A stretch of DNA of 64,000 nt from Amoebophrya sp. A120 (GCA_905178155.1 CAJINV010000031.1:62001-126000), one strand, 5' to 3'. Numbered from the stretch's first letter, positions 87 to 63,563 are shown. Made by a program: numbers and translations. Notes: a model not told the origin generated them from the sequence alone.

Positions 87-1920
87 TTGTTGGGTGTTGG
101 CAGCAGCGAAGATGTAGTGCAGCTGCGGGCACGAGGTGAAGAACAGGTCGCGCCGAAAGCACCGCAGAGGAAGGAAAAAGTAAAAGCCGCAGTTAGTAGT
201 CGCAGTCTAGAGCACAAGAAAAGGGTAAAGAAAGTAGAGCGTCCGTGGACAGAAGATGACATCTTTGATTTTGGAAATCAAGTTGCCCCAGGCGTGTTCG
301 TCGGGCCGGACAAGCTCTTCGCACTGGTGCATAAAGACGATGTGGAGAACAAGTTCCGACGGCGAGCAGGGAGCGAGCAGGTGGTCTCGGACGCGTACGA
401 CAAACACAACACCGACGCCGTGTTGCGGTGGAAAAAGGAGGTAGCAGACAAGTGCCTCACCCACGTCGTCTTATCCTGCTTAAAAAAGCTCCCACCCCAG
501 AGTCAAGATGAGAAATGTGCATCGCAAATCCAAATTCCTATAGTTTTTGGAGTTGAGCATGACAAGTTCCTATTAGTAGCGCACTGCTGGTTAGTAAGAA
601 GGATAGCCGTACCACAAGGTCGCGCCCTTTGTTTCCTGTTATTTGCAGCATTACAATTGCCAAGACGCGGCTAGACGAATTGCCTCTCACGATGTAGATG
701 CAATTCTGCATGACGACTCTGTGCTGGGGACGTTTTTGCTCAGGATGCATGTCGATCCACGATTATTTGACCATAGACAAGAAAAACTTTCCGAACGTCA
801 GGGAGCTCTCGCACTTTTCGGGACTCTGTGACGACGATGCCACGGAGCTGGGGCCGGTGCTCGAGTCCGCAATTACCGCCATACACGAAGGCTTGTGGCA
901 GTTGGCCGTCGGCGGAGCGGCGCCGATCCGCTTAGACGCGATCGCACGAGAGCAATGGAACGCGCTTGTGGTGCATTCCGATTCCGAAGATGGCGGCGAG
1001 GGCGAGGATGGTCAAGTTCCCGCTTCTGCGAGGCCGGCGAAGAGGACGAAGCTCTCGGCGACGCAGCATCATGAGCAACAGCGTAACCCCGTCCGAGTGG
1101 AGGCCGCGGCGCGTTGTGAAGAGGCAAGCAACCCCGAACGAACGTTGCGGAACAAAAAAACGCCTTTCCAGCTACCACGCTGTCGGTCTTTGCGTAGAAG
1201 GTTTTTTGATGTGGTCCCCCTAGTGCAGGATAGATGGTGATGATGCATGAAGACGTTAGTGATAATTGTATGTAAAATGCAAAAGTGCAAGGGAAATGCA
1301 AATGGAAATCACGTACAACAGGCTTATTTTTAATTTGGCCGTGCGGCATTTCTACGCATGACGGAGGGATGAACTTTGTGTATTTTGAAAGTGCGCAAAA
1401 CCAAAAGTGGCTGTGATGGTTTCTTTTTCTTGGATACGCCCTGGTGTACATTCACTGTCACCAAGGGTGCAGTCGTTCTGCGGCGTTGTGGATCGCGTAC
1501 GTGGTATGCTGCTGTGAAGTTCCTGATCTAGAATTAGCTCTCCACACGGCACAGCAAGGACGTTACCTGGTATCGCCGAATGACGCCTTCCTAGAACAGG
1601 GCAAGGGGAAAGGCTTCGGAGGGGGCTCGTCATCCTCGTCATCATCATCATCTTCTTCTTCGTCTTCTAGTTCCTCCTCGAACAAGCAGGGAGAGAGAAA
1701 CGAAAACCAACAGCAGGACACGAAGCATACAGCAATCAGCGTGACGCGGACGCAGTCGCGGCGTTTTTGGCGAACCACTTCGCGAGAAAACACTTCGACG
1801 CCACGAACTTCTACAACCCGGCGGTTCTCCCGACAGACCACCGGGAACACATCTTTTCCACGCGGATGGCAAAGCCGCCAAGAGTGGCCGCGGGAGCGGA
1901 GCAGCCGAGCTTCGTGCTAG
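87..1920 (+). CDS. Dual-specificity protein phosphatase (multi-exon, both ends uncertain, may start upstream of the window)
   Basis: Catalytic motif VYIHCHQGCSRSAALWIAYV at 1444-1503, followed by SPNDAFLEQ; removing element 472-747 gives CLTHVVSIHDY; the junction near 1160-1440 is unresolved. Confidence 0.75.
472..747. mobile_element. TIR introner element, family D (degenerate)
   Basis: TATCCTGCTTAAAAAAG...CGTTTTTGCTCAGGATG; TSD cgtct/catgt; removal restores frame. Confidence 0.75.
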
Positions 1921-3187
1921 ACGAGAATCTAAAGTCGGCAAACACCACACAGCCTGGAAGAGCATCTGCGCGCGTTCTATCGTGTGGGAAAATTTCCGGT
2001 TTGCCTGGGAGTCTGTTCCTGTAGTACAGAGCGGCTTTTGTGTTTGTTATGGACCAATTTGTACTGCATGGCAAGTGTTTATATTTGCATTTTGTGTGGT
2101 GTGGGTCTCTGAAAATCAAAATTCAGATAGGAAATTTGCCCAACTCCATGTCCAACTCCAACTCGGCGGACGGGAAGCGACCTCCGGAACGCAAAGAAAG
2201 AGATGGCGAGCTTCTTTCGGATCACTGATTCTCAGTCCGTCTTCGCTGCAAACAGGTTGTGAAAATCCGGACACTCTCGTTAGATTACATTTTTATCAAA
2301 ACCTTCTAGCAGCACTTTTGTATACAGTTCGGCCTCGGCAGCGTGTTTTTTTTACAACTTCGATGCTCATGATTCAGTGCGGAGCATAATTTTCGGGCAG
2401 TCGCTCTGTCCTGCAACGTTGATACCATTTTTTTCTGCATCGCTTCTGACACGACATACAGTAGAGTAAGTAGTCACGCACAACAAGTATGGCAGCAATG
2501 ACAAAGAAACTACGCGAACAAATCACGTTCGCGAAAATCCCCTGCTAGTTGCAGCGGAACTCTTTTCAGTAGATTGTCGTCGTAGGCGTAGTGTTCAACT
2601 GTCGCGGACATCTTCAGCGGGATGTAGAACTTCTGCACACACTGCATGCAGCTACCACGACTCGGTATCGTGCAACTCTGTGGGACTGTTTGGCCCGTGC
2701 TTCATTTCGTAGAACAGACAACATTGTCGGTCAAGGAACGTTGTTCGTAGATAGATTGCGATTCAGATTCGGATTCGGGCGGGGATGCACGTACAACGAC
2801 AAATCGAATTTGCGGGGGTTCCACTTGTAGTCCTCGTTATCCAAGCGTATCGTTCTGAATATTTCCATCATCGTCGTAGTCACATTCTTGTGGGAGGGCG
2901 ATTTTGGAGATTTCACTGTAAATCAAAATTTATGGTACTGTTTTTGGCGTGAACTTTTCGAACGAACAGCAACAGCATACCGTCTCTCCTTGTCCTCCCA
3001 GTCAACCCCTGGATCATCCACTACCTACCCACCACAGAATTTTTTAAACTGCGCAGCTTGCGTTAAAAATAGAAGTTTATACAAGATCGATTTTTGGTTT
3101 GTCGTCTAAATTGCTAAGGAAATAAAATCAGATCCAAAAAGCACGCTCCTATCAGACAGTCAGTCTGCTTCCACCCCAGTTGGCATC

Positions 3188-4174
3188 ATGTCTCTCCGTC
3201 GCTCGGCGTCAATTCCGGCGGAGCTCTGGCCGCGGTACAAGTTTTTTTCCGACCCGACCACGCAAAGCCGACTAGATGCGGACCCAAAGAGGCTGGCACA
3301 CATCCAGAAAGACCCCAGCACAATAAAGTGGGAAAGACCCTCCAGTCTGGTGGAAGACGCGAGCTGGGACAAGTACAGCATTTTTTTCATCTAGGCGCTT
3401 CTAGCCCTGGTGTATTTTTCACCGCCTGGCTACCTAGGGAGACAAAATGACAGTAAATTACCTTTCGTCTCCGACCAAGACCAATACTTGCGAAAATTGA
3501 TGTAGTAGTGGAAGAATATCACTTTGGTAGAAGGAGGATTCATCTCCAGGACGAGCTAGTACGCGCTCGCGCTTTATACTCTGAAAGGTCGGATGGACTT
3601 CTGTAAAACCGAAAGAAAAAAAACCCTTAGGTACTACTTTTTCTCGGACCCGTCAATCGGAAGCTCCGTGCACACCACCGCGAGAAAAGGGCGCAGTCGA
3701 GTTGCGGCAAACGGGCCAAATACCTTCGGACCGCAATTTGTGAGCAAGTTTACGCCCCCTCTGGATACCAGCAAAAAGTACATTTTTTTTTGTTGCATAA
3801 AGGACTGATAGATCTGTTGATGTAAAGCTGTCGCCTCGACATCGACCGCGACACTGCGGGGCGAAGTTCATCTTGAGAAAGAGTCACGATGGTCATGGTG
3901 TCAAGCATGTTTCGATCTCAGGATCAGTTGTATGCGAAAGAAATTAAGTAGCCCTCGGATTTATTTCTCCATCACAATACTACATTTTTCACCACAGGCT
4001 GGCAGCAACAACGCACGATGCGACATACAAGGACCTGATGCCGCGCGTGATTGAGGAGAAGGCACCCGAGAAGAGTATTTGCCCCCACATCTTTCCCCAT
4101 GGCCACGTTACGATCGACAAGCTGTTCGCCAACCCGCGGCCGCAGGGACCGTCCGGCCGGGCCATGATCATCTG
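3188..4174 (+). CDS. Hypothetical small multi-exon protein
   Basis: Three GC-richer blocks (about 3188-3371, 3631-3777, 3998-4174) separated by GT..AG-like AT-rich stretches; FFSDP occurs in two exons. Confidence 0.35.
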
Positions 4175-5663: not shown

Positions 5664-7172
5664 ATGCTTGAGTCCTCTGTTTCGGGTCGCGGGCCGTCCT
5701 CCTCCGCCCGCAGTATGCTGCTACTGCCGTCGCTTGCAATTCAAGTTGTAGCGTTGGCATTTTTCATCTTTCACGATACAGCCCTCTCCGGCGTCAAGGG
5801 CGTTCGCGTACGTAGTTCCGCCTCCCATTCCCGCCCTGCCTCTTCGTCTGCCGGCGCCCAGACGCACGGCCCGGGGGACTCGCGCGTTCATCGAGATGTT
5901 GAAGTGGCAAAAAGGCTCGGACATGACCTCGCTTTGTGCTTCAGCACCGTTCAGACGCCGGGACCGGAGAAACAGGAGACAAAGCGGACGAGTCGTGCTT
6001 TGGAAAAATTCAATCGAATGACGTTTCAAAGCGGCGAAGTCGAAGACAAAGCGGAGACAATGCGGGGCGAGCTTCTGGAAAAACTCACGAGGGAACGTCG
6101 CGTCGGATGGGCCTCCGCAAAGAAGTTGAAGGGCTTGCGTGATAACCTGCGAGACATGGGCGAAATCATTGGCAAGGCCAACGCCAAGGACACAGGTCGC
6201 GGCGCACCTCCACCTCCTCGGAAAGAAAAGCTCCGGTTTTTGAAGGTGTTTTCGGAGCTTGTGGCGACTGCTTTGGATGCGTCCGAACTTCGCCTCGCCG
6301 CACCGGAGGAATTTGACAGCATAGTGGACGGCGTCATGCTTGCGTGGATCGACGCAGCGGCCGGCGAGGTGGCCTGCCGGACCGCCGAGGGGTCGCCCGA
6401 GCTCTCTTCGCATTGGGAGCGCCCGCCGTACGTCTTCATTCAATCGGCCACGGAAACGGCGGTCGAGTACACTCTCAATGCCCGCCTACAGCAGTTTGCG
6501 AGACGCGCGCGGAAGCGAGGAGTTCCGGCGACTTTTCTAGAAGATTTGCGAAAGTCCGATCTCGTGCGGGGCGTTCTCGTGCGAGCCAACGGAAATGGTG
6601 GTGAGCCAGAGGTGAATTACATGGGCCACAACTTCGGGGAGCGAGTGGAAAGTATGCCGACCGCTTTACGTGGAGTGATTGACGGGAGCGCGCTGCCGCC
6701 TTTTCTGGTTACCCGCTACCCTCCGCTCGATGATCCGTCAGTCCAGCCTAGAAGACTGAAAATACACGCATTGATTCGCTACGAGCCTGCTTTCTTTCGG
6801 TTCTTGTATCATCCGAAAGTGCTGACCCTCGTCAGCGAAATGCCACCACGAGAACGGATCGCAGACACTTTCGTTTATGGCGTTTCAAACGTTACATTCT
6901 CAACTGTTACATGAATTTGTCATGCAAAATTGCCATAAGCCGCCACACGATCAAGGTGCTTCACATGACAAATTCTCGAAGGGCTAAACAGCAGGGGAAT
7001 CCGTTCCAAATTTGTAATGCAAAACGCGCAATCTTCCCGCTTTGGCTTTTACTTTTGCTGTTCTTGCGCCACAAATTAATGTAACAGTTGAGACTGTAAC
7101 AGTTGAGAGTCCCATAGCGTTAGCGGCCTCGAGGGCGAATATCTCGCAGTCGAACTGTTCGGGAGACAGTGA
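5664..7172 (+). CDS. Hypothetical protein with N-terminal hydrophobic segment (2 exons)
   Basis: 416-aa ORF; removing element 6876-7116 continues it as ...DTFVSGLEGEYLAVELFGRQ to TGA at 7170-7172. Confidence 0.7.
6876..7116. mobile_element. TIR introner element, family E
   Basis: TATGGCGTTTCAAACGTTACATTCTCAACTGTTACAT...ATGTAACAGTTGAGACTGTAACAGTTGAGAGTCCCATA; TSD tcgtt/gcgtt. Confidence 0.85.
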
Positions 7173-7199
7173 GGCCGTGATGAGGTCGGCACGGCGATG

Positions 7200-10722: not shown

Positions 10723-12060
10723 ATGTCGGGCGGCGGCGGGGACCCCCCGCCTGCGGGGACGGCGGAGGGCGAGGCGCTACTCGCGAGTCTGTCGCGGGCG
10801 GGCTTCCCGGGGGCGCACCAGCACCAGTCGCCGCTGATCTCGCCCTCGAGCACGCTGAAGGGCATTCCAGGCGGGTTGAGCGCCATATCAAATGTAAAAG
10901 TGTCTGGGTCTGGAAGATTGCCAGGTTTGGCATTCACATTTTGCATGACTCCTGATGTCTGTGATGCATGCCCTAGCATCACAGATTTTGTGAGGGCTTC
11001 CTGTTGCTTATACCGCATGACAAATGCTCTTTCTGTGTAGCAAAACTTGGACTCTCTTTGCTGTTCATGCAATACAGATTTTTTTAGAATCCAAAATCAG
11101 CATGACAAGTTGGATTCTTCGAGACCCAGACATTTTTACAGTTGATACGCCAAGCTGCAGAGCGATGCGTCGAAGATCTCGATCGCCGACCTGGAGGAGA
11201 TCCGGCTGCTGGCGATATGGAGTGCAAAAGTATCGTACTCGTAGTAATCGCAGACATGCATTACAAATCTTGTTCTCAAGGTAAATCCGCATTACAAATA
11301 CGAGTGCGATACTTTTACAATGCATGAGCAACCCAGCCCAACAATGAGGAAACCATCGACGGGGTCGCGCGCCCGGGCCGCAACCTGTCCGCGATGGAGG
11401 TCACGCACCCGCCCTACCAAATTGTGGTCATCTACAACCAGAGCCGCCACGCCTCCAACAGCGTGCTCGCCGACGTGCGAGCGGTTTGGGGCCAGGCGGT
11501 GATCGTGGTGCAAACCGTGGAAGACATATCAAATGCAAGGATTATGTCAGGGTCTGGAAGAATGCAAGTTTATAGTCATGCTCGCCCAGCAAAAGAATCC
11601 TCAAGCCTGTCAACATGCACGCTAGTACTCAAGCAGACTAGAGCGCAAGTTTTCTTTCATGCACATCCGCAGTTTGCCAAATGCAGAATAGACAACACGT
11701 AGCAAGTCAAAATAAACTTGTCATGCTTCGTCGTCAACTGAAGCGTCCTCATGAAGATTTTCGTCCACCCCTGCATCACAAGTTTTTCAGACCTTGAGGG
11801 ATATTTGCACTTGATAAGACAACGCGGTGAGCGAGTCGACCGAGACTACAACGAACTCCGTTGCCAACAACCGCCTCCAGGGGGTCGACGACGTCATTCT
11901 CGTGCGGCCGGGGAAGTGGGGCGACCTGGACCACTTCAAGGAGCGCATGGTACTACACTGATAGAATACAACCGGGATCATATTGATGAAAATCTCGACT
12001 TTATTTTGGAATAAACTACAGGAAGAACAGGACTACTGAAGATTCATTTTTGATGTGTGC

Positions 12061-12094
<34 letters not shown>

Positions 12095-15000
12095 CGACCA
12101 CACGTGCTGCGCGACGAGAGCTTTTTTTTTGTGTGACTGATATGCGTTCCTCGATCAGTAGTTCCTGTGTCTACTAACTCAATCCGCGCAAGTTCGTGGT
12201 CAAGAACATCCAAAAAATAAATTCGTCCAATTCGTCTACTAGGGTCACTACGAGACACAGAATCCGTGGTTCTGGCAGGCCAGGCGGCACGGCGAAGTGG
12301 TTTTCATGGCGGGGTGGTCGGCGCTGGCCGAAAGCGCGGAGACGGGGCGCATCGTGAAGAACAAACTGGGCCTGGTGTGGCCGGGCACCGATCTATGGAT
12401 TGCAAAAATGTCTGGGTCTGGAAGAATGCAACTTGTGATGCGCATTTCAGAACACAGAAAGATCTCTCATGCATAGGTAGCAAAAGCTGCCCACTTTCTG
12501 TCACCAAAATGTGGGATTTGTCATGCGGATTCGGCATTGCGGAAGCTTCTCGAAACCTGTGATGCTAGAGCTTCCATGTCAGACCTTCTGTGTCATGCAA
12601 AAACAGCATGACTCTTCCAGACCCAGACATTTTTACATTTGATACGATCCGGACGTGAGCGACCGACTGGAGAAGATCGGCATGAAGCAGATCTTATCAA
12701 ATGCAAAAATGTCTGGGTCTGGAAGATTCCGAGACTTGTCATGCAGGTTTTCCATGATCCATGTCATCTGGAACGCAGCACCTAGCATGATAGATTCTGC
12801 GGGATCCCTATCATGCCTATCCTGCGTGAGAAACTTCCTCTCAACTTCGTCAAAAGTGGGCAACTTTTGGCATTCATGCAACACAGATTTTTGCATGATC
12901 CAGAATTAGCATCACAAGCTCCGACCTTCCAGACCCAGACGTATTTGCATTTGATAGATCTGCAAGAAAGTGGGCGCGCCCACCCCGCCCTTCACAATCC
13001 TGTCCGGCTATCGGGTGTAAAATAGACGTCCCCACCCCAGGAGAGTTGTCTTCACGAGGAAATTTGCAGTTACAGAAGCAGTTGTAAGTAATACAAGAAA
13101 CGCGCATTTCCATCATGAGAGGCATTTTCAGTCGTGTTTTGGTTTTGGAATTTGTGTTGCAGAGGTCCCAAGGATTGACTCTTGGGTGGGGAGGACGTTG
13201 TTACTCAGGATACCGGCCAGGACTTCGTCGCGAACATCGCTGATGAGGCCTCGAAGAAGGCGCTGATCGAGAAATTTGTAGGCCAAATATTGGAAATGAA
13301 CACCGCGGTGCCAGGATTGGTATTATTTGCATTTTTATCTAGTTTGACAGCACTTATCAAGAACCGATATAAGTAATTTCTTCTAGAAGAACTATCCAAT
13401 GTTTACTTCACTTTTAGGTTCTCCCACGTGATTGGGATGATGATAGATGTTGAGGCTTGGTGGAGTAGATTGCGTAGCTAAAAAGAACTTATCTATTGGT
13501 GGAGTAGATTGCGACCGTCTGTTCGCGAACAACTGACGTCGAACTTATCTATCAGGTGAAAAGTATTCACGGTGGTGGTGGCAAGGGGAGTGCACAAGTG
13601 GCAAACCCGCGGTCGCCGGACCAGGTTCGCGCCGCGGTGTCCCAGGTCTTGAACGAGATGAAACGGGCCGACGGAGTGTACTTCGAGGAGAAAGTGAATC
13701 ACGACGGGGACGGGCGATTCTACCAGTTGGAGCTGGAGCTGGACGGCACCACCGTGGCTAACGGCGGGCGGTTCGTTTGGTTTAATATGCATAATGCAAA
13801 AGCATCGCGTTAGTTGTATAAATCGCATGACAAAGTTCCTCAGCATGAGAAATGAAATTTGTAATGCGGCTTTGACTTGAGAAAGAAATTTGTAATGCGT
13901 GAGCCGGATTAGAAGTACGAGTGCGATACTTTTGCAATGCATATTCAACAAACGCCTGCAAAAGGTGGTGGAAATCGGACTCACGGACCAGTATTTGAAG
14001 GACTTGTCGGAAGCGCACGATAGCGGCTACGGCGACGATCTGCCCTACTTCATCCCGTGGAAGCTGTACTCCCAGGCGCGGCAGTGGGCCGCCAGCATCG
14101 CGGCAGAGGCGGGCAACAACACCCGCGCGACGCTGGAGGGCCTGGTGTGGCGCGATAAGGAAAAAAAATTCCATTTCGCTTTCATCGAGTGCAACCGCCG
14201 TCCCCAGGTGGAAAACGAGGCCCTAGCGTACAAGGATGAAAACACCTTCGTTCGTTGTCGTGTCGTGTTTGTTTTCTTTGCGAACTTGTGGTCCGGGTCC
14301 GGCAGTAGTAGTACTTCGAGTCGAGGAGGGGGGCCTCACACGCGGGAGGATTGAATTTCATTTTTTTTCCTGTCAAAAAGAGGTCCGAGACGCTCGCCAA
14401 TTTTCAAAAAAGGCCCAAAAAAGTGGCCGCGCTATCGACGAGCAGGTCCCCTTAGCGCCTATGCCGTCAACTCTTTCAAATTCGCCGTCAATTCGTTTTC
14501 GACCACGTGTGGACATGATTCTATTTGGACGAAGTGTTTTCAATTGCATATCAGGCTGCTAGAGAGAGACTCTTCCAACAACCGACGCTATACATTCGCG
14601 GAACTGATGATGCGAGCAAAGGGATACCCTGGTAAGTACTACAACGTCTTGATTGATGCGCTAATCTGGATTCCAGTGTGAAAATAGCCTCCCATAAAAG
14701 TCGTAAAGTACTACTACGCTGATATAAAGTTCTTTCCAGCCGTATACAACTATTCACATGCTTATACCACTTTTATCTAACACCGATCCATCGTGAATAA
14801 ACAAGGTTCCAACATCTTCCAGCCGACGCGCATGCGGAACGTGGCGTGCCACGCTCGCTGGCTGCATGGCGACCCGGACGAGAACGGCATGATTACCTAC
14901 AAGCCCGGCGAGGTGGTGGGGATGCAGGGACCCCAGTTTGCGTTTGTGCGTTCTGAGCTGATGCCGGCGGGGGAGATCTCCTTCACCAGCGACCCGCAGC

Positions 15001-33522: not shown

Positions 33523-33588
33523 CCATGTCCATGCGAGTATAGGTAAGTAAAAACGGACCCAGGCTCAACTACCACAGCCCAAAAAGAA
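33523..33588 (+). repeat. About 66-bp dispersed direct repeat, copy 2
   Basis: Near-identical to 32571-32637. Confidence 0.9.
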
Positions 33589-49400: not shown

Positions 49401-52400
49401 TACGGCCGGATGGCACGGCCCTCTTGCGTTTTGGTCTTGCTCCCGCCGACGTCGTTCCTGTGGACCTCGCCAACCTGACTTCTAGTGCGATCCACATCAG
49501 CGCCAGCTCCGGAGACAGCTACAAGCTACTTGGCCCCACCGAACAAAAAGCATCAAAACGCCTGATGGAAGCGGTTTTGATGGGTAGTGGTTCTTCATCA
49601 GGAGGAGCTGGACAACAAGAACATTTTTATCGAGAGCGCAAGAAGAGTCGAGCGTGTCCTGGGAAGCGGGAAGTTGAAATCCAACTAAGTGAAAGCGATA
49701 AAGCGGTCTGGGGACAGTACTGCCACTCGTTTGTAATCTGCGAGGAGGAAAGGCGCAATAAGACGGGCGCAACGTCGGCGACCAGCTCTCGGCAGCAACT
49801 ATACGCGGAGGAGTTCTCGCAGCATCGAAGTGGTGGAGGTGCTCCGCCCCACAAGGACGAGCTGCAGCTTCTACACGGGCGCTGCCACGAGTGGAAAACC
49901 CTGAGCCAGTATCAAATGCAAGAATGTCTGGGTCTGGAAACTTGTGATGCTGGATGGCGTCTCATGATGAGGCCACAAATGCTGGCTCAGCATGACAAGT
50001 TTCTGAGCTCCTAGGTGTTGCCTATTCTGCATGACAAACTGCCCTTCTGCATCACAGAAAAGCGGAGCTCTTGGGTAACGTGCATGACAGATTTAAGAGT
50101 CATGCCAGACAAGCATGACAAACATGAATTCTTCCAGACCCAGACATTTTTACATTTGATAGCCAGATTTTCACGGGGGTCCGGGTGTCGGCTCGCACCG
50201 ATTCCGAGGTTCACCAGACCGCGGCTGGGACCTTGCTACGCGATCTGGAGGAAATGAGGCACCCTAGCAGCCGTCCGGACTGGAGAAGCATCGACATATG
50301 AAAACAGACAACGAAACTCCCCTCTGACCTCGAAATTCGATCATGAAATATGTGTGTAGAAGGATTACGCACTGATCAAGACATTAAGCATGAATCAGCT
50401 TTTTACTAGCATTTCGCTTGCTTGTCGTGTAAACAAGCCTGAGAAGAAGCATGAACCGGGAATACAGAAGATCGGTGCAACACGTTGGAGTGCTACCGTT
50501 GACGGAGGAAAAGAAATGCTGCCTTGTATCTATACTTGTAGTAGCGATGTTGAAGCGCCGCAGGAGTAGTTATAGTCCCTGCGTTGTTCTTGAACTTGTG
50601 TCTGTGCTGTCATGTTGTTGATCAAAATCTGCCTGAGCCTGCAGATGAGGCGGAGGTGGAACAACGCTTCCATTTGATACGATGTGTCGAACTACGTGAA
50701 TGTGGCTGCGGGAACCCATCTGGCGGTGACGTTTGTGAGCGCGGGTGCGGACGGGAAGCCGGCTCCGATGGGTTACCTGGACATGGTCAAGGGGCTCGTG
50801 CACAAGAAAGCGCGCGGCCTGCATCAGAAATACTTGTCCGACCTGCTGGTGCCGCTGCCGGCCCGTATTATGAACGAAAACTCGAAGAAACAGGTGTACC
50901 GGCTGGAGGGCATGCGGTGGCTGAACGACCCCAGTATTGACTACTCGAAGCCGTTGTCGGCAGCCGCGAAGTATGCATTGCAAATATGTCTCCTGGGTCT
51001 GGAAACCTGTGATGCTGGTTTGCGAATCATAAAAGCAGCCTCCAATATGGGGACGCGCATGACAAGTTTCTAAGCGACTAGGTCTTGCGTCAAATGCATG
51101 AGAAACTGCGTTTTTGCATTACAAAAAAATAGACTGGTGGCGCAACATGCATGACAAATCCTCCTCTCCTGTCAGCAGAGCATTACAAGTCTGGTAATCT
51201 TCTTCCAGACCCACACATTTTTGCAGTGGATACGTTGCGGCAACTAGATGAGAACGAGGACCAACGCGCGTTTTTGCCGGCCGGCGTGCTACTCGGCGGC
51301 CACGGGCAGGCGGACAACCAAATTGAACCGTACGTGAGCGCCTTCGCGTGGACCAAGTTCTTGCGCGAGCAGTTGGCCCCATTGGCAAAGCAGTGGTTCA
51401 ACATCGAGCACCAGTCGACATCTTCTGCTGCTCGGAAGGAGGGCACGAAAGGACAAGAAGAGGAAACATTGTCAGGCATCACGGGAAGGAGCAGCGGTAC
51501 GAGACGGTCGGCGGAGAATGAAGCCGAGGGAGAGGACCCGCGGGACGGGAGCACTAGTCATCCACAGAAGCGGTGGGTGCAGCCGGATGAACAAGAGCAA
51601 GTCCTTGGCACGTCACACCCCGAGAATATTACTAGCACGCAGGGACAAGAAGAAGAAGTGCGGAGAACAGCAAGAGCATCTTCAAAGAGCCCCTTAATAC
51701 CCCTCGTGCTAACTGGTGGACAGGCCAGTGCGATTTTGCGCGCGGCGGGACCGTATCAAATGCAAAAATGTCTGGGTCTGGAAGATTCTGAGACTTGTCA
51801 TGCACGTTTTGCATGGGCCATGATGCCTGTGATGCATACCCTAGCAATACAGATTTTCTGAGGGCTTCTTGATGCCTATTCCGCATGACAAATGCCTTCT
51901 CAGCGTAGCAAAAACTGCATTGCCTTTGGTACTCATGCTATACAGATTTTTTTGGAATCCAAATGCAGCATCACAAGTTCGGACTCTTCCAGACCCAGAC
52001 ATATTTGCATTGCATAGACCGAAATCGAACCATGGCGATGAGACGCTCCGGTATTTGCGAGAAAAGTTCGGGATTGTGGTCTTGGCGGGCTACGATTCCT
52101 ACGTCCACTGCGGCACCAAGCAGATGGAGAACTGGACGTCGCGGTCGCCAGGTAGTTTACAACAACAGCACGACGGCTTATTTCAAAACAATACCGCCCT
52201 CGCAGTAGAAACTACGAAGCGGTCCTGTCGTGGGTTCGCACCGGAGGAAATCCGGCGACGCGCCGAGCAGTACATGCATAGTAAGGGGGAAGAGCAGGAT
52301 GATGAGTCTCCGGGAAGATCACCGCGGAAGAACAAGACGACGACAAGGAACAACGGCCCGGCAGCTCTTTATAATTCTTCCGGAAGACCAATGAGCAGGA

Positions 52401-55072: not shown

Positions 55073-58000
55073 ATGCGGGGCTCCCGCGGACAACAAGAGA
55101 GCGCAGGCGGCGAAACGCCGGGTGGAAGCGCCGGGAACGATGCAGACCCTTCTCTCGGCGGAAGATCTTCAGGTTTACTTCAGAATGAAGATCCGAATGA
55201 ACAAGATGAGAAGATCTTGTGGTCGGAGGCGGACATTTCTTACATGGAGCAGTGGCTCAACGACGCGGAGAAGAGGCAGCTCCGGAAGAAGATACATGTG
55301 ATTAAGGAGTGCAAGGGAAAGTGTCGCACCTTGCAAACTATCCAATGCATCAAATAGGTCTGGGTTCTGGAAGACGAGTGCGAGATCTGTCATGCAGCTT
55401 TTGCTTGACCAAAGTCCGATCGGGCATGCAAACTCTAGCATCACAGATTTTGTTGAGCAGGTACTTACCCCACTGCCTAATCCGCATGACAAATCCACTG
55501 TTTCGGTAAAATAAGAACTGGGGCCTTTTGCTAGCCATGCATGACAGATTTTGTCATGGTGTAGACTTCTGCAAATCGCAAATCTGAATTTTTCCAGAAC
55601 TAGACACATTATATATTTGCAATGCATACAACCCATGGTAGACACTCAGGGGAAAGGAGAGCCCCTGGTGGAAGAGACGGGTCAAGGCTTGGAATATGTG
55701 ACGCGGCGACGGCAGATTCTGGAGTACTGTGAGGAGCAAAATACGGGGGTCCGTAACTTGAAGGGCGCTGCAGCATCGAGACAAGCGGAAGCGCGGAGAG
55801 AAGAGGAACGGCAACAGCAACGGAGGAAAGGCGCGCTGCCGGTGCAGCACCGCGGAGACGGACCACCCGGACCGCAAGTAGAAAGGCCGTTACTCCAAAC
55901 TTATTCACCGCAAAAGTATAATAAATCGTGTAGTCTACTTACTACTCGTATATGAAAAGATTCTTGCTGAAGTAGATGTCTTGCATGACATTACCATTAG
56001 ATCTAGCAAATCTTATCGGAATTATCCGCATGACAAATTTTCACCGCTGTTCGTGAGAAAATTTATCATGCAAAATAAATGTGTACGACTACGTCTACAA
56101 CGCTTTTGCACCAATGCATAAAACTTTACTTGAGGAACAATATCAAGAAGCTCCAGCGATCGACGAGAGTCGGCACGCTGCGACACGGGTAGAAGTACCG
56201 GCGAAAATGAATCCCACTGGTGCCGTCCAGGTGTTGGACTTCGGCTGCAAGGAGCCGTCTGCGTCGAGTGCCACTGCTTCGGGTTGTAACATCTTCCAGC
56301 AGCAACCTTCCAGCAGTAGTTCTCGACCACCAGTAGCTTGTTCGTCTGTGACAGCACTAAAACCCGGTGGGGGACCACTCGGGAAACCAGAACAGTTGTT
56401 GATGTCGCGGCCCATACAATGTACCAGTGATGAAGTAGTGTTTTCAAAATCAAAATTTGGAGAGCGAGATGCTTGCTTTCGTTTTCTAGCGGAATGTTTT
56501 ATTTCTGACCCATTCAATTGCATACAAATGGCATATGTTTTCGTTTTCTTCGCATGGATGTCGGTTTTTCAAATAAACGTCGTCGGCGCTACTTTTCAGG
56601 TTCCGACGAATTTACTCAAGATTTACTCGACCGAATTTGTGCCGATCATCGCGATTGTTCCAAAGAAGTCCGTCTGGGGCTGTGGAACAAAAACCCGACT
56701 CCACCGAGGCCAACGGGTCAGGACACGACTGCACTTCTTGTTCCCGAAACGATGAACAACAGGGCAACACTTCGAAACCCCGCTGGGCAAGAACATCCAC
56801 TTGCACAGAACGCTGAAAATAAGGTCGTGCAGCACGACGACGACCACGTTGATAGCGAGAGTGTCTACTTCGAGCGGCCGCCCGATAATTGGAGGTCGAG
56901 GTCTGGGTCTTGGATGCCGGACGAGGAGGTCAACTCTGCTTCACCAAAGAACGAAATCTACGTTGGCCCAGATCTACTTGCTTCTAGCAGTAGTGGCAGC
57001 TGCAAGAACATGTTGCCGAGTGGACAAAAGTCCCCTTCTGCTTTTGAGGGCCTAGGCGCACGACCCGAGTTGGGCGACGGGGAGGACAGCAGCAGTATTT
57101 TGGAAGAAGAGGAAGATGTGTGCGCTGTGGCGCGGAACCCCCTCTGCCATCTGCTAGCGGACGATGAAAGCAGTTGGAGAGAAGTGCTACCAAACTGCAT
57201 CAACCGTCGTGCCAGGAATTGGCTCGGTAAAATTTATTTGTGTCGAGGATCTTCACTTTTGAATGATGATGTTCGTCCGCCTGCGCACTGTATGTTATGA
57301 CTGAGGTTGAGTCATTTGAGTCGTGAAAATGTAGTGGCATATGAAATTTAGAGGACAATTTTACTTATTTTGGTTGGAACAATGGAAGAACAAGCAAGTG
57401 CCTACCAATTTTGCCGACTGCCTAGCGTGGCACGCTCGCAGACCATAACTGTTGGTGCACGACGATTTCTCGAGAAGCTACTGCAACCTGCAGCGGGAAC
57501 GCCTCGACCAATCGGACGTCGACGCTTACACCAACCGCATTGCGCTCATCCTGCGCGTGACCGGGCACATCGACGCAGGTGGTGGTATCATCGGCCCGGC
57601 CGAGGGGGCCCAGACCACCCGGAATGCAGCACGGAACTTTTTGGCGTACTCGGTGCCTCTCAACACCAGGGCCGACGACCTGCCATCACTTGCAGGAGCT
57701 TCAGCACAAGGAACTTCATCTTGTGATGTGCCTTTGGCTTTACCGCCGCCGAGCACAGATTTGACTGATACGCTACGCGATTTCTTATCAACGAGTTTGC
57801 AATTTTCATCCGATAAAAGTTCTCTGGCGGAGGAAGTTGACGTTGAGGACTCAATTTCTGCTGAAGGATCATATGCATTGCAAATATGTCCTCTGGGTTG
57901 TCTCCTGCTGGTGCTGGAAGACTGCGAGATTTGTTTGTCATGCTAGTCTGACATGCCGCTGCAATTTGTATTGCATGGCCACCAGCAGTCTCTCTTGCCT

Positions 58001-59564
58001 GTCATGCAAGAACGCAGTTTCTCATGCGAAATTCGTAGCGCAGCAGCACGACGAAACTTGTCATGCCTGGCGGCGCATTGCAGTGCATTTATGTTTCACA
58101 GACTTTCATCACAAGTTGAAGTTGAAGTTTGAGTTTCCAGCAGACGCAGACATATTTGCAACGCATAAAAGAAGTAGTTCATCTTTCGGGTCTTTCGCCC
58201 CGGACCACGCACTGCTTGTGTACATTCCGCAAGCGGAACTGAGTCGCGCTTCGGAACAGGCGTTACCACTGAAGAAGCCGAACTTCGAACATTCCGCATT
58301 TGCGATCCTGAATGAAGTTACGAAGCAGGTAGAAGAATAAATACATAGCAGACGTCTCTAGTACTTCTCTATCTCTTTATGTTTGCAAGAAGAATTGCAT
58401 ACTTGCAGCCCGAAAATTATCAATCTCCGAAAATTCTAGAAAAAAAGCTTTCAAATTCAACTTCGACTACATCGGAGATCGATTGCCGAAATCGAATGAC
58501 AATAATAAAACTCTACCGTAGTTGCAGACCGCAGATATTGGGACGACGAACAAGGACTTGAAGCAGAAAACCACCAACGGCGGCGTAGGTCTGCTGTGCC
58601 TCCTGGCCCACTCCGCGCAGGAGGAACGGCACTGCTTGGAGCTGAAAATCCGGCCACGCGAGGCGACGCTGCAATCGTGGCTAGACGGCAAGCCGGATGC
58701 TCGGCGTGACGAAATGTTGTCGAGGACCACCTGCGCAAAACTCGCTGGTGCAACCAAAACCGAGACCTTCTTCCTGAAGCAGCAGATTGAGGCAAAAACA
58801 ATCGTCGAGACCCGAGCGCGCGGGTTGGGAGATGTCCTGTCTTGGTGTGGGCAGGACAAGAACTTCGGCGACCACTACGAAATGAGCTTGGTGGCAAATG
58901 CGTTACCACCAGCAGAGGCAACCACGAGTGGACCACCGGTGGACTTGCTCGACTTAGAGCCCCTTTCTGCTCCCGGATTCTTTCTCATTGCGTTCACGCA
59001 AGTTTCGACCCAAAACGGTCGCTCCGAGGTCCTTCGTGATTTCCATCTCCCGCCCGCATGCAGGTACATAGTTCTTAATCGGACTTTGTGTTTGTCGAAC
59101 TGTTCTACACGAACAAATTGAAGATGAAATGCTGAAAAATTGAAATGGTGCAGCTTCCCGATGTAGTTTTGCAGAAATAACCAGTTGTTGAAACCCAGAG
59201 CTGCTGCAACTTTATCATTTCTTCTTGCACGACGACCTGGCGTCGCAGTTTTTGTTGTCGCAAAATGTGTTTAAATTTCTTCACCAGATCGCTGTACCTC
59301 TACCGGTGGGCAGAAAAGCGTGTGGCGTGGGGAAAGTGCGATGGCGCGGCGTGCTCGTTGCAACGGCAGAACCTGGGGTGTAACGTTATTACCGTCAAAG
59401 AGGACCGGACGGAAATGGGTCGGGATGGCAAAACGCGTACCGTCGAGAAGCAGTTCTGCAGCTTCTGTCGTGGCGAAAACCTGCATTTACCGAAAAAGGC
59501 GATCATTCGCTCCGGTTACAAACTGGATCTCGGCTTCGGATTGTACTACGGAGTTTATCGTTGA
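55073..59564 (+). CDS. Hypothetical multi-exon protein (could be more than one gene)
   Basis: Chain of + strand GC-richer ORFs (55073, 55551, 56081, 56518, 57452, 58522, 59265); two junctions restored by element removal; no family recognised. Confidence 0.5.
55339..55628. mobile_element. TIR introner element, family A (diverged)
   Basis: TATCCAATGCATCAAATAGGTCTGGG...ATATTTGCAATGCATA; TSD caaac/caacc. Confidence 0.88.
57872..58167. mobile_element. TIR introner element, family A (diverged, TSD eroded)
   Basis: TATGCATTGCAAATATGTC...GACATATTTGCAACGCATA; flanks gatca/aaaga; removing element + 5 nt keeps the frame. Confidence 0.85.
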
Positions 59565-59721: not shown

Positions 59722-62700
59722 TTGACGAGCGCAACGGCGCCTAGCAGCAGAGCCCGGGGTCACCAAGTAGGGCCCGGAGCACAACCGTCGTCCTCGTCGG
59801 CTGCACCGCCGGCGGTGCAGTATCCGGATTTCATCACCTATGGTGCCACTGGCAGTCCGCTCTCGGAGGCAGCTCTCGACGACGGGGGCCACGGTAGTGG
59901 TAGGAGTCCACCTCCCAGCGGGTTGAAGGTCAGGTGGGGCCCTGGATCTACTTCGAACAACAAGGGCGTCGTCCACATCACGGCGGTATCAAGGGCAAAA
60001 ATGTCTGGGTCTGGAAGAGTTGGAACTTGTGATGCAAACTCTGGAACACACAAAAATTTGTGTTGCATGAGCGCCAAAAGCTGTCCATTTCTTGGTACGC
60101 AAGTAGAAAGTTTCTCATGCGGGACAGGCGTCACGAGGCGTGCTCAAAACCTGTGATGCTTTTGCCTGCACCAGACGCCATTTGCGCGATCCGAAATATG
60201 CATGACAAATCTAGAAATCTTCCAGACCGAGACACTTTTGCATTGGATAGGCGGCCTCTTGTGATGTGTCCAGGGAGAACGTGGAGGACGTGCTGCAACA
60301 CGTTGAGACCCAGTTGCGGTATGAACTGCAAATATGTCTGGGTCTGGAAGAATGCAAACTTGTCATGCTCGGCCGACAATGCACAAGAGTCTGTCATGCT
60401 TGTTGTGCTACAGTGCCACTTCTTTGCCATGCAAAAAGGCAATTTGGCACGCGATTAACGCTAGACGTAGCCAACCAGAAACTTGTCATGCGCGGCTCCG
60501 CAATACAGTTTGCGTATCATTCGGACATCAGCATGACAAGTTTCCAGACCCAGACATATTTGCAATGCATATGTGGTCGATCGGAGCGATTCTCCCGGGA
60601 GGTGAGGAAGCTTCATCCACCGGGGATCAAACTACAAGTGCCTGGCAACCTGCGACGACGAGAAACTTCGAGGTGGTGGATTTCGATTTCTCAAACAACC
60701 GACAACTTGATTGCTACTGCACCCGGATGCTCACGAATTGGCTTCAGTACCACGAGCTCATGCCGCGCTCTTTGAAGCTGTTCAAGTGCAGTCTGGGAAA
60801 CCGGGGCGCCAATGTGATTGCCTCGTACTTAATTTTATACTTACTAGATAAACTACTTACAACCAAATAATAGATCTCGTACTTCCACCTTTACTGCTGC
60901 TTCAGTTCCTCGGTTGTTTCCGTCGGCAGTGATAGCAGTCTTTATTCCGTTTGATTGATGTTTCTTCGAACAATTTCTTCTACTTCCAAACTGAAACTAT
61001 TGCTCGTCCGCTATTTTTCTCCACATAAGATAATTCAAAATCAAATTCTGTCATTGCGAAAAATTTTTGTCCAGGTTTTTACGGAATTTCAAACGGTTTT
61101 TACTGGGCGCGCGGATGGACGCAGGTGACACGTACCCATGGGTGATGGAGGAACTGCACTTGTCCGATAACTACATCGAAAACGCGGGCATTGCGCCACT
61201 CATCAAGTTTCTCAGCGACGAGACCACCGAGAAATTGTTACGACAGTGCACTATTCCCCCTCACCCTCATTTGTCATGCAAAATCCCAACTTTACCTTCG
61301 GCCTGTTAGCACTTTTTGCATGACAGACTCCACAAGCCACAACAGCCCTGCAATCCTCTTGGAATTTGTCATGCAAAAGCTGCATCTTTGCCAGCGCTTG
61401 TGTTGCTGTTCATGCAACACGAATGAGGGGGAGGGGGAGTTGTGCACTCTCATAATTGTACCCGCGCGTGTACGAGCCGTCGGTTGGCGACAGAAAACAA
61501 ATGATTGCGGAGCTTCAGGACAGAGGTACTTGCTTTATAAAGTAAGTTGTAAACTTCAACTTCTCGCCCTGCGATACTAAATTGATGACTAACTAAACAA
61601 AAGTCTACATTATACCACGCGTCCGCTCAACATTCTCTTCTCGTCAGGCCTTCCTTTTTTTTGCCTCCCTCCTCGCTACGAAGAAGACGCGAAAAACGCG
61701 ACGTGCATAGAAATTTCAGCAATAAATTCAGTAGACATTCATTCTTGGCTGGTGCCCAATTTGATGCGGATGTGAAGAAGTAGACCCTTTGTTTTGTTGT
61801 AATTACTTCTCAACACGCAAGGCTTGTCCAGAGTAAATTCCAAGCTCCGAGGCACAACTTGAAATGCTTCACCGTAAGTACGACAAACTACCAGGTTACG
61901 ATAGCGAGGAGCACAGATTCACCTACGGGATGCGCATTATCAAAATGTTGAAAAAATCCTCCCTCCCCGTACTCAAACTCAAAATGGAATACTGGTGTGC
62001 GCACATTGTGCGTCAGAAGCTCACCCATTTTGAATACTACCGGGAGGGTGGATTTTTCTTTACGATACACTTTTGCCGCCCGCTTATCAAATGCAAGCAT
62101 GTTGTCTTGTTTCGATCTGGGTCTAAACTTGTGAGAATGCTTGCTTGCAACTGCAGTTTCGTGATGCTTTCATCGAGTGTACCTAAGCTTGACTTGTCTT
62201 GTGTGTAGCTTGCGGCATTTTTATTGGATGGCAAAATACGTCGCGCTCGCGCTTTGTTTGCGAGTCATAGTACATAACAGGTTCTCGTTCATGAATGCCA
62301 GACACACAATACAAGAGCATTTTTTATTGTTCCCGACCAAGACTACATATTTGCGATGCATACCGCTGTGGGTTCGCCTCGATCGCAACCTTTTGGACGT
62401 GCCGAAGTTGGTGCTTGTCGAGGGTATGTCGGTGTGTGATCTGCAAAAACACAGGTGGAGCCAGCTGCGCGGTAAAAAGTTCCGTTTCCTGGCCATTGCC
62501 CTATCCCGTGCAGAAAGAAACATCTCGTCCACGACGACTCAAGAGTCAAGCTGCGAATGCTGCAACATCGAACTGCGAAGAAATATAGTTATGCCGAAGT
62601 TTTGGAAGTCACGCATGACAAGATCTCATCTGTAGTGTAGCACATGCGCGCAAAAACAGCTTGAAGAAAATCTTCATGACAACTCTGGGGTGTCTGTGGG

Positions 62701-63307
62701 CACCAGCTCCGGTTTTTTTTTACACAGGATACGCGGGGGAGAAAAATTACCAGACGTACCCGGTTTTCCGGGACGAGTGTGCCGCAGAATTGTACCCAGC
62801 GGCCCACTTCAGCCATATCTATAAGCAATGGGCACGCACGGCGACGAGAGGCCAGTACAAGCAGACCAACCAGTCTCCCTTCGAAAACGACGACTCTGGG
62901 TGGAATTCCTACGGGTACGGGGGCTCCAGCTGGGATATCAGAATGAAAAATCCCCCCTCCCCATATCAAAACTGAAATATGTGATGCAGATTTGTGGTCA
63001 CAAATCAGCTTTGTCATGCTAGAAGGCAAAAGATGCGGACTGTACTGCTGCCTAGCGTGGGAAAGCCTTGCAGCTCCAGGATGACAGGAGGCAACTGGAA
63101 GTGGGAAACAGCATGACAGATTACCTGCAATCTAGGCCGCAGATTCGTCTCTTGGCCTTCTCGCAATACAAGTCGATTTGTGTACTCAAATACAGCATCA
63201 CAAATTTGCGCATCTTCCGTTTCCGATATGGGGAGGGGGGATTTTTCCTTTTGATATGGGAGAAAAAGTCAGGAGGTAGTCCGTCCCCGAAATGGTGGAA
63301 GAAATAA
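59722..63307 (+). CDS. RNI-like leucine-rich-repeat protein (start uncertain)
   Basis: VVDFDFSNNRQL, PRSLKLFKCSLGNRGA, MEELHLSDNYIENAG, EKLYPR, PLWVRLDRNLLD after removing 7 elements; stop TAA at 63305-63307. Confidence 0.7.
59987..60249. mobile_element. TIR introner element, family A (263 bp)
   Basis: Family A TIRs; TSD ggcgg. Confidence 0.95.
60320..60571. mobile_element. TIR introner element, family A (252 bp)
   Basis: Family A TIRs; TSD tgcgg/tgtgg. Confidence 0.95.
61239..61454. mobile_element. TIR introner element, family F
   Basis: TACGACAGTGCACTATTCCCCCTC...GAGGGGGAGTTGTGCACTCTCATA; TSD attgt. Confidence 0.92.
61938..62067. mobile_element. TIR introner element, family I-like, short (130 bp)
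   Basis: TATCAAAATGTTGAAAAAATCCTCCCTCCC...GGGAGGGTGGATTTTTCTTTACGATA; TSD cgcat/cactt. Confidence 0.8.
62085..62362. mobile_element. TIR introner element, degenerate family A
   Basis: TATCAAATGCAAGCATGT...ACATATTTGCGATGCATA; TSD ccgct. Confidence 0.88.
62502..62731. mobile_element. TIR introner element, family D-like (diverged)
   Basis: TATCCCGTGCAGAAA...TTTTTACACAGGATA; flanks tgccc/cgcgg; removing element + 5 nt keeps the frame. Confidence 0.75.
62936..63256. mobile_element. TIR introner element, family I
   Basis: Family I TIRs; TSD tggga; closely similar to 47651-47965. Confidence 0.95.
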
Positions 63308-63310
63308 GAC

Positions 63311-63563
63311 TATCAAGTGTAAAAATGTCTGGGTCTGGAAACTTGTGATGCTGGGCGGCGTATCATGAGGAAGCCGTAAGTGCTGGCTCAGCATGACAAG
63401 CTTTTGAGCTTCTAGGTGTTGCCTATTCTGCATGACAAACTGCGTTTCTGCATGACAGCAAAATGGGGCTCTTGGGTAATGTGCATGACAGATTTAAGAG
63501 TCATGCCAGACTAGCATGACAGAGCTCGCATTCTTCCAGACCCAGACATTTTTGCATTTGATA
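63311..63563. mobile_element. TIR introner element, family A (253 bp), at the stop codon / 3' UTR boundary
   Basis: Family A TIRs; TSD aagac overlaps the TAA stop. Confidence 0.95.

What the first reader, a model, noticed from the sequence alone, without database searches (positions are those of the whole stretch)
472..63563. Unrelated TIR families share a TAT-N7-AAAA end and internal TTGTNATGC / GCATNACAA boxes
Families A, B, C, D, H and I differ in TIR sequence but keep TAT at positions 1-3 and an A-tract at about 11-15 (TATCAAATGC-AAAAA, TATCCTGAGT-AAAAA, TATCAAAAGG-AAAAA, TATTACAGTG-AAAAA, TATCCTGTGC-AAAAG). All nine families, including E, F and G, carry TTGT(C/G/A)ATGC-type boxes, typically facing inward: forward just inside the left TIR, reverse just inside the right. 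The box looks rare outside elements. Inference: a common trans-acting factor (transposase or dedicated excision protein) binds this 9-mer.
Basis: partly seen in the sequence, partly recalled or inferred. Interest (0 to 1): 0.8.

Follow-up and report, generated by a model that had tools for sequence, protein, structure and literature searches.

The report
Shared subterminal box in Amoebophrya introners
These are already described jumping introns of the parasitic dinoflagellate Amoebophrya, and their many unrelated families share a 9-letter internal motif, not found in our literature searches, that is not needed to splice them out of RNA and is likely the DNA docking site of the still unknown enzyme that moves them.

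Summary
The window holds 54 TIR elements with 5-bp target duplications, mostly in GC-rich, exon-like flanks of an Amoebophrya genome. They match the A120 introners, whose TAT-N7-AAA end Farhat 2021 already reported.

The internal box (TTGTVATGC) was not found in print. 112 of 113 copies lie inside elements (shuffle mean 2.7). The enrichment replicates in 403 elements from another assembly, and box columns are about 3-4 times more conserved than the rest of the interior. 'Inward at both ends' holds for family A (19/25) but not the others (7/29).

RNA-type contigs remove element+5 nt exactly, including elements with boxes in one orientation only or none, while DNA-type contigs keep them. So the box is not the splicing or excision signal. 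Same-orientation boxes recur 31-33 bp apart, and the first box sits 35-36 or 45-47 bp from the tip, which points to binding on duplex DNA.

Best reading (0.6): subterminal binding sites of one shared, unidentified transposase, as in Ac/Ds1. Side results: one junction fixes the cut as N-TAT...ATA-NNNN, and neighbouring elements cluster 20-100 bp apart.

The parts
472..747 (.). TIR element, TSD CGTCT/CATGT, exact boxes 0 fwd/2 rev
6893..7098 (.). TIR element (TAC..GTA, no A-tract), boxes 2/0
10723..20106 (+). Host gene: 1,433-aa biotin-dependent carboxylase-like ORF after removing 16 elements (+5 nt each) and 5 GT-AG introns; 71% identical to Amoebophrya sp. A25 protein P0001
   Evidence: 6 of 6 intervals match X3 contig lengths
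10886..11147 (.). Family A element, TSD CGCCA, boxes 0/2
11216..11326 (.). Short element (30590 group), TSD GGCGA/AGCAA, boxes 0/2
11527..11816 (.). Family A element, boxes 1/1
12394..12644 (.). Family A element, boxes 2/0 (PWM 4/0)
12695..12956 (.). Family A element, boxes 1/1
13009..13212 (.). Element, no exact box (PWM 1/0); spanned by DNA-type contig
13786..13943 (.). Element (30590 group), TSD TTTAA/TTCAA, boxes 2/1; RNA keeps upstream copy at position 3
14229..14550 (.). Box-less element (TAC..ATA), TSD TAGCG/TCAGG; removed from RNA-type contig, kept in DNA-type contig
15068..15345 (.). Family A element, boxes 1/0
15358..15566 (.). Element, boxes 0/2; 7-nt exon separates it from the previous element
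15621..15885 (.). Family A element, boxes 2/1
17742..17918 (.). Element (TAC..ATA), boxes 0/1
17961..18222 (.). Family A element, boxes 2/1
18965..19226 (.). Family A element, opposite orientation to 17961 (93% identical), boxes 0/1
19276..19537 (.). Family A element, boxes 2/1
19696..20000 (.). Element, boxes 4/0 (forward only); kept in DNA-type contig, skipped in RNA-type contig
23040..23327 (.). Element, TSD CAGCG/CAGTG, boxes 3/0 spaced 85 bp
23699..23879 (.). Element (61239-like ends), boxes 0/1
24958..25220 (.). Element (TATCCTGAGT end), boxes 0/1
28530..28796 (.). Family A element, boxes 1/1; RNA joint skips element+5
29462..29759 (.). Family A element, forward boxes only; RNA joint, cut after TSD position 4 or later
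29819..30014 (.). Element, reverse boxes only; RNA joint
30316..30549 (.). Element, boxes 2/1; RNA joint
30590..30738 (.). 149-bp element (TATCCTGTGC end), boxes 0/2; RNA joint
31177..31463 (.). Element (TAC..ATA), TSD ATGCC/CGCGC, forward boxes only; RNA joint, cut after position 4 or 5
36065..36735 (.). 671-bp element, reverse boxes only; RNA joint in 4 of 4 runs, cut after position 4 or 5
36813..37123 (.). Element (no A-tract), boxes 2/1; RNA joint
37556..37869 (.). Element (TATTACAGTG end), boxes 1/1; RNA joint
37907..38165 (.). Family A element, boxes 1/1; RNA joint
40578..40839 (.). Family A element, boxes 1/2; RNA joint
41380..41631 (.). Family A element, boxes 1/3; no joint listed
42018..42368 (.). 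Element without exact box, TSD CGCTC/CGTAT; joint 42016->42373 fixes the cut after TSD position 4 on both sides
   Evidence: one contig of run X5, depth 3.6
42566..42886 (.). Element (TATCAAAAGG end), boxes 0/2; RNA joint
43155..43416 (.). Family A element, TSD CCCCG/CCCTG, boxes 3/1; no joint, only a loose end at 43416
45406..45729 (.). Element, boxes 0/2
46936..47197 (.). Family A element, boxes 0/1
47651..47965 (.). Element (42566-like ends), boxes 2/2
48065..48316 (.). Family A element, boxes 2/1
49910..50161 (.). Family A element, boxes 1/3
50972..51232 (.). Family A element, boxes 0/4
51754..52016 (.). Family A element, boxes 1/2
55339..55628 (.). Family A element, boxes 0/1
55902..56120 (.). 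Element, boxes 0/1
57872..58167 (.). Family A element, decayed TSD, boxes 2/0
59987..60249 (.). Family A element, boxes 1/1
60320..60571 (.). Family A element, boxes 2/1
61239..61454 (.). Element (TAC..ATA), boxes 2/0
61938..62067 (.). Short decayed element, no box
62085..62362 (.). Element, no exact box
62502..62731 (.). Element (boundary less certain), boxes 0/1
62936..63256 (.). Element (47651 group), boxes 1/1
63311..63563 (.). Family A element, boxes 1/2
21348..21356 (+). The only exact box outside a catalogued element

Best explanation
The elements are Amoebophrya TIR introners with 5-bp target duplications that stay in DNA-type contigs and are removed with one duplication copy from RNA-type contigs whether or not they carry boxes, and the TTGTVATGC boxes are likely subterminal double-stranded-DNA binding sites for one shared, still unidentified transposase. 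Shown: anatomy, enrichment, conservation, exact removal from RNA-type contigs, and independence of removal from box number and orientation. Inferred: a transposase multimer grips the TAT tip plus several boxes (first box about 35 or 45 bp in, pairs about 31 bp or three helical turns apart) and inserts with a 5-bp stagger. Only copies with intact boxes seed new insertions, so unrelated families converge on the same box while their interiors drift. Splicing is inferred to rely on the TIR hairpin, with the intron running from the last base of the upstream duplication to the fourth base of the downstream one (N-TAT...ATA-NNNN). The enzyme is guessed to be integrase-like (IS3EU/GingerRoot/Ginger neighbourhood).
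For: Enrichment: 112 of 113 inside; replicated at 8.0 vs 0.72 per kb in 403 elements. Conservation: box columns diverge 0.02-0.07 against 0.07-0.19 for other interior columns in 10 of 10 alignments with at least 5 copies, p<0.02 in 9; the free middle base behaves like other sites. Private divergence 3.6-4.3% at boxes, 9.6-10% elsewhere, 4.5% between TSD copies: conserved between lineages, drifting after insertion. Not strand-specific: 644 forward vs 586 reverse boxes on the sense strand of 295 strand-called elements, 31 forward-only and 27 reverse-only; families insert both ways, e.g. 23 vs 30 and 12 vs 12. Removal: 13 of 15 elements in 28.4-43.6 kb have a joint and all 13 skip length+5, including forward-only (29462, 31177), reverse-only (29819, 36065, 42018) and, in the carboxylase gene, the box-less 14229. 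Spacing: window non-A elements peak at 10.5 bp, permutation p 0.001, 0.002 after scanning periods 6-16. 30-33-bp pairs occur in 14 of 28 groups in the loci, 11.8 per draw vs 2.1 null; first inward box at 35-37 or 45-47 bp in most groups that have one. Precedent: Ds1 shares only TIRs and a few transposase-bound hexamers with Ac (PMC3260210 passages). A120 family 38 is listed as Ginger, 5-bp TSD, TA/TA termini (PMC12130899 dataset row).
Against: No transposase was found: no long coding element among 403 (longest 972 bp, longest stop-free stretch 153 codons), no genome is held, and Farhat et al. report no putative transposase in A120 (section 16). Helical phasing is weaker in the replicate: one element per group gives R 0.20 and cos 0.20, median p 0.03 and 0.015. 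Pooled non-A loci peak at other periods, modal end distances peak at 9.4, spacings of 18, 39, 49 and 79-82 bp are off phase, and exact-motif-only tests in the window do not survive the period scan. Many elements lack an inward box at one or both ends. 79 of 208 boxes pair with another box in predicted RNA folds. The cut register rests on one low-depth contig, and a loose end at 43416 may show the downstream copy at position 4. X3-X6 are RNA by guess and come from one sample; X1 may be the source of the window.
Confidence: 0.6

Rival explanations
1. The boxes bind a host DNA-binding or chromatin protein (or position a nucleosome-like particle) that the elements co-opt for mobilisation or for choosing targets, rather than the transposase itself.
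For: Duplex-DNA signatures fit any DNA-binding protein. No transposase is known in A120. Neighbouring elements cluster 20-99 nt apart (108 gaps vs 32 expected) regardless of group (15 same-group pairs vs 20 expected), which could reflect chromatin. A title on maize nuclear proteins binding Ac subterminal regions appears in the reference list seen (not read).
Against: The box is at or below chance outside elements in the window, intergenic DNA included (1 in about 50 kb vs 1.6 expected), which is unlike a host regulatory site.
Confidence: 0.2
2. The boxes are leftovers of one ancestral element with internal repeats; the families descend from it and the box has no current job.
For: The recurring 31-33-bp spacing could be inherited. 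The tip resembles an outward-facing degenerate box in 11 of 28 groups.
Against: Interiors share no BLAST similarity across groups, yet box columns are about 3-4 times more conserved than neighbouring columns within groups, with the middle base free.
Confidence: 0.07
3. The box is an RNA signal (a splicing enhancer or stem extension) for the non-canonical splicing machinery.
For: It is confined to introns of this class (0 in 7 GT-AG introns). 79 of 208 boxes pair with another box in MFE folds. 400 of 403 elements in the loci have at least one PWM box.
Against: Removal occurs with only forward, only reverse or no boxes. There is no sense-strand bias. Post-insertion drift is close to the TSD rate.
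Confidence: 0.08
4. The elements are excised from DNA in a developmental stage (IES-like) by a dedicated protein that binds the box.
For: Precise removal of element+5 nt with no GT-AG; transposon-like ends.
Against: DNA-type run X1 has unbroken contigs across four elements (13009, 14229, 15068, 19696) at depth 41-45, like unique flanks. The runs that skip elements also skip GT-AG introns. The box-less element is removed too. Contigs drop rare variants and only one DNA-type run was laid.
Confidence: 0.05

Closest known systems
Amoebophrya sp. A120 introner elements (Farhat et al. 2021, PMC7789003; sections 10, 11, 16, search passages and supplement part 3 read; figures not seen)
   Same: IR starts TAT, seven variable nt, then at least three A; 3-5-nt direct repeats (5 bp in Fig. 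S19 legend); non-canonical splice ends; about 240 nt; no internal transposase. The best protein hit of the host gene is Amoebophrya sp. A25.
   Different: The text read does not mention an internal motif ('CATG' 0 times in the supplement text). It leaves the splice position unresolved and argues against general transposase mobilisation. Here a shared box, a 31-33-bp spacing and one fixed cut register are added.
A120 introner families in Gozashti et al. 2025 (PMC12130899; passages, and dataset rows for about 50 of the 58 A120 families seen)
   Same: TIR DNA families of 149, 209, 252-261, 305 and 319-321 bp, like the lengths here; family 38 is annotated '5-bp TSD, TA/TA termini' and has integrase-like homology.
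   Different: Most families are left 'Unknown'. The box strings were not found in 12 of 14 supplement files searched (files 13 and 14 not searched). Family 38's sequence could not be checked for boxes.
Maize Ac/Ds1 and Ds-l4 (PMC3260210 passages)
   Same: Non-autonomous elements unrelated inside, sharing TIRs and short subterminal repeats bound by the transposase; Ds1 can act as an intron (reference titles seen).
   Different: hAT, 8-bp TSD, identical 11-bp TIR and hexamer AAACGG. Here the TSD is 5 bp, the TIRs differ except for the tip, the box is a 9-mer spread through the interior, and removal from RNA is precise.
IS3EU/GingerRoot DNA transposons (PMC10045372, PMC6839031, PMC12730594 passages)
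   Same: TA..TA (TAY..RTA) termini, TIRs, integrase-like transposase.
   Different: TSD is usually 6 bp; here it is 5 bp (314 of 403, with 0 at 4 or 6). No transposase is available to compare.
Euglena nonconventional introns (PMC12501133 abstract and outline)
   Same: Non-GT-AG introns whose ends base-pair, with cuts offset from the stem.
   Different: The Euglena signature is N3CDG..CH'GN5-6|R. Here the stem starts at +2 and ends at -5, and the elements have TSDs.

Membership tests
Amoebophrya A120-type introner elements | IR begins TAT, 7 variable nt, then >=3 A | tested here: met
   73 of 108 ends; 97 start TAT
Amoebophrya A120-type introner elements | 3-5-nt direct repeat at the boundaries | tested here: met
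   perfect 5-bp repeat in 30 of 54 (window) and 314 of 403 (loci)
Amoebophrya A120-type introner elements | Removed from transcripts without GT-AG | tested here: met
   13 joints skip element+5; 6 of 6 intervals in the carboxylase gene; runs are RNA by guess
Amoebophrya A120-type introner elements | Repeated families, hairpin-forming ends, no coding capacity | tested here: met
   families; tip stem in 42 of 53 folds; no long ORF in the 7 elements over 420 bp
Amoebophrya A120-type introner elements | Host is Amoebophrya | tested here: met
   best of 84 hits is Amoebophrya sp. A25, 66% over the exon, 71% over the model; one gene only
Subterminal transposase-binding repeats (Ac/Ds type) | Short motif repeated inside the ends and shared by otherwise unrelated non-autonomous elements | tested here: met
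Subterminal transposase-binding repeats (Ac/Ds type) | Also present in the autonomous element | not testable with these tools
   no genome held; no autonomous element in the loci
Subterminal transposase-binding repeats (Ac/Ds type) | Bound by the transposase and needed for transposition | not testable with these tools
   needs pull-down, EMSA or a mobilisation assay
IS3EU/GingerRoot | TA..TA (TAY..RTA) termini | tested here: met
   104 of 108 ends TAY (the finder favoured such ends); 318-323 of 328 ends found without that filter keep each of T, A, T
IS3EU/GingerRoot | 6-bp TSD | tested here: not met
   0 of 403 at 6 bp, 314 at 5 bp; RNA skips length+5
IS3EU/GingerRoot | Integrase-like DDE transposase of that clade | not testable with these tools
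   no coding element available
U2 spliceosomal intron | GT/GC..AG ends | tested here: not met
   the fixed junction is CT..TA; TSD bases show no G or AG bias
Programmed DNA elimination (IES-like) | Element absent from somatic DNA | tested here: inconclusive
   kept at full depth in the one DNA-type run laid; other life stages not sampled

The most novel reading that the evidence does not exclude
One undescribed integrase-like transposase (TAY..RTA ends, 5-bp TSD) mobilises dozens of sequence-unrelated Amoebophrya introner families by reading a modular code: the TAT tip plus helically spaced TTGTVATGC boxes. Protein bound on resident boxes steers new insertions to 40-80 bp from existing elements of any family. 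Splicing is a separate, AG-free process set by the TIR hairpin at N-TAT...ATA-NNNN.
Probability: 0.25. Interest if true: 0.72.

Novelty: new member of a known kind. Interest (0 to 1): 0.45.

Why it matters
Farhat et al. left open how about 30,000 A120 introners in 1,954 families spread without a recognised transposase, and where they are cut. A single motif uniting the families gives a bait for pull-down and a search key for the autonomous partner (a long TAT..ATA element with box arrays). Showing that the box is dispensable for removal separates the mobilisation code from the splicing code, and mismatched TSD copies give a way to map the splice register genome-wide. The elements and their end motif are already known, and subterminal repeats are a textbook feature, which caps the surprise.

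Tried and rejected
- Apparent conservation of TSD position 5 in the window (2 of 40 mismatches in 23 pairs) did not replicate: 18, 19, 12, 15, 18 in 63 strand-called mismatched pairs from the loci. Rejected as chance.
- A codon-likelihood test of which TSD copy is exonic had no power (38 of 60 for positions 1-4, p 0.36; 7 of 14 for position 5).
- Element lengths show no 10.5-bp period (R 0.14).
- Table S4 of Farhat et al. (NT 5' ends) fits the register, but I did not count it as support because aligner placement within repeats could produce it.
- Singleton counts saturate in large families and were not relied on.
- Raw RNA runs X9 and X10 gave only 8 and 31 partial reads: no information. No RNA holder was on record.
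- No hit of the family-A end in viral contigs. No genome held, and the loci's records are not held for profile search, so the hunt for a transposase stayed open.
- Literature: searches (Amoebophrya, introner; the box strings; 65 papers, 20 listed, none on these elements by title) found no description of the box. Subscription papers and figure content were not covered.
- Three look-ups of earlier scan findings returned nothing.
- Rows dropped: one auto-called candidate at 9070-10028 (low score) was left out. In the loci, duplicates from overlapping loci were removed, and the finder gave 2 false elements in 265 kb of shuffled DNA. The PWM was trained on window non-A elements, so window PWM counts are not independent; the loci are.

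Full report
What is there. A search for TAT/TAC..RTA ends with flanking repeats, plus manual additions, gives 54 elements of 111-671 bp covering 14,205 of 64,000 bases. They are AT-richer (44% GC) than their flanks (59%) and carry 5-bp target duplications, perfect in 30 of 54. Removing 16 of them (each with one repeat copy) and five GT-AG introns opens a 1,433-aa ORF at 10723-20106 with a C-terminal biotin-lipoyl domain. Its best relative among 84 hits is an Amoebophrya sp. A25 protein, 71% identical over the model. Farhat et al. 2021 (PMC7789003, section 11) state that A120 introner IRs start with TAT, followed by seven variable nucleotides and at least three As. The first half of the finding is therefore published.

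The box is real. 113 exact sites against 2.68 expected; 112 inside elements, in 49 of 54; none in 7 GT-AG introns; the middle base is never T. An iterated matrix gives roughly ATTTGT(C/G/A)ATGC and about 4 sites per element (212 in 54). A metagenome scan with the family-A end returned 134 loci of another assembly holding the same families at up to 97% identity but none of the window's unique DNA. There, 403 elements in 28 BLAST groups have 8.0 boxes/kb against 0.72 outside, and most outside hits lie near end-like motifs. The claim of inward boxes at both ends holds for family A (19 of 25; 126 of 171) and not for the rest (7 of 29; 44 of 232). The searches, the Farhat supplement text and 12 of 14 supplement files of Gozashti 2025 showed no description of it. 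Figures and two files were not seen.

Removal is at the RNA level and ignores the box. Run X1 (DNA-type; possibly the window's source) has unbroken contigs across elements 13009, 14229, 15068 and 19696 at depth 41-45. Run X3 skips elements and GT-AG introns alike, and 6 of 6 intervals between its anchors equal the model exactly. In 28.4-43.6 kb, 13 of 15 elements show a joint in X3-X6 (one sample, RNA by guess), and all 13 skip element+5 nt. Removed elements include forward-only, reverse-only and box-less ones. For box-less 14229-14550 the A25 ortholog also agrees with the joined form. In the loci, sense-strand boxes are 644 forward and 586 reverse, and families insert in both orientations. 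A single-stranded RNA signal cannot behave this way.

Where the cut falls. TSD copies that differ act as markers. The upstream copy is kept through position 4 in 29462, 31177, 36065, 42018 and 14229. Joint 42016->42373 leaves no slack: the cut is after position 4 on both sides, so the intron reads N-TAT...ATA-NNNN. This rests on one contig of depth 3.6, and a loose end at 43416 may disagree. The seven GT-AG introns checked all begin GTA, so NTA looks like a donor relaxed at +1. That is inference, and no AG is used at the 3' end. TIR tips pair in 42 of 53 predicted folds.

The box behaves like a duplex-DNA site kept for mobility. Its eight fixed columns diverge 0.02-0.07 against 0.07-0.19 for other interior columns in ten alignments. 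Private changes at boxes (3.6-4.3%) are close to the drift measured between TSD copies (4.5%): intact in copies that spawn, drifting afterwards. In window non-A elements, box-to-box and box-to-end distances peak at 10.5 bp (permutation p 0.001; 0.002 over periods 6-16). The stricter representative sets and exact-motif tests are weaker. The replicate is weaker too (median p 0.03 and 0.015 for one element per group; pooled peaks elsewhere). What holds firmly is a 30-33-bp same-orientation spacing in 14 of 28 groups (11.8 vs 2.1 pairs per draw) and a first inward box at 35-37 or 45-47 bp. Off-phase spacings (18, 39, 49, 79-82) exist.

Mechanism. Most likely (0.6) one transposase binds the tip and several subterminal boxes, inserts with a 5-bp stagger and so keeps the box in families that share nothing else. 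Ac does this for Ds1 (PMC3260210 passages). TAY..RTA ends recall IS3EU/GingerRoot, but these make 6-bp TSDs, so membership fails on that feature. A120 family 38 is listed with 5-bp TSD and TA/TA termini and integrase-like homology and is the natural candidate partner. No transposase was found here. Rivals: host chromatin factor 0.2, RNA signal 0.08, relic 0.07, DNA excision 0.05.

Verdict. Known introners with a known end motif, plus an apparently undescribed subterminal box of a known kind. It gives a handle on an open question. Interest 0.45.

Noticed in passing
window exons between adjacent elements (e.g. 12649-12693, 12961-13007, 17923-17959) and loci L001-L078: Neighbouring elements cluster 20-99 nt apart (peak 40-80): 108 gaps vs 32 expected; ratio to 100-399-nt gaps 1.93 vs 0.37 (max 0.60 in 500 uniform re-placements). 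Neighbours are not of the same group more than by chance (15 vs 20). The null is not exon-restricted. It suggests insertion next to resident elements or into linker DNA.
   Followed up: partly
window 42016-42373: The single junction with no ambiguity: intron begins 1 nt before the TIR and ends 4 nt after it.
   Followed up: partly
window 15350-15356: A 7-nt exon between two introners is included exactly in the RNA-type contig.
   Followed up: yes
element tips, positions 4-14: The tip scores best as an outward-facing degenerate box in 11 of 28 groups (mean score -13 vs background -25), so the A-tract may be half of a related site.
   Followed up: partly
window 10723-20106: Divergent biotin-dependent carboxylase with dinoflagellate-wide relatives; its central exons match no Pfam family.
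   Followed up: partly
window 31468-39050: RNA-type contigs run from about 33559 through 38974, i.e. 2 kb of AT-rich sequence upstream of the ORF near 35.7 kb, and others cover 31.5-33.6 kb: long UTRs or read-through.
   Followed up: no
window 7082-8200 and 9300-9830; 32560-32640 and 33520-33590: Degenerate direct duplications in intergenic DNA, seen by eye.
   Followed up: no
window 63838-63970: Tandem repeat with a unit of about 26 bp that matches TAT-N7-AAAA but is not an element.
   Followed up: no
L015:5314-5770, L026:571-1051, L027:3862-4492, L042:5001-5972, L043:8961-9456, L068:2785-3492: Longer elements (457-972 bp) with ordinary ends and extra internal DNA, longest stop-free stretch 85-153 codons; possibly nested or filler-carrying copies.
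   Followed up: partly
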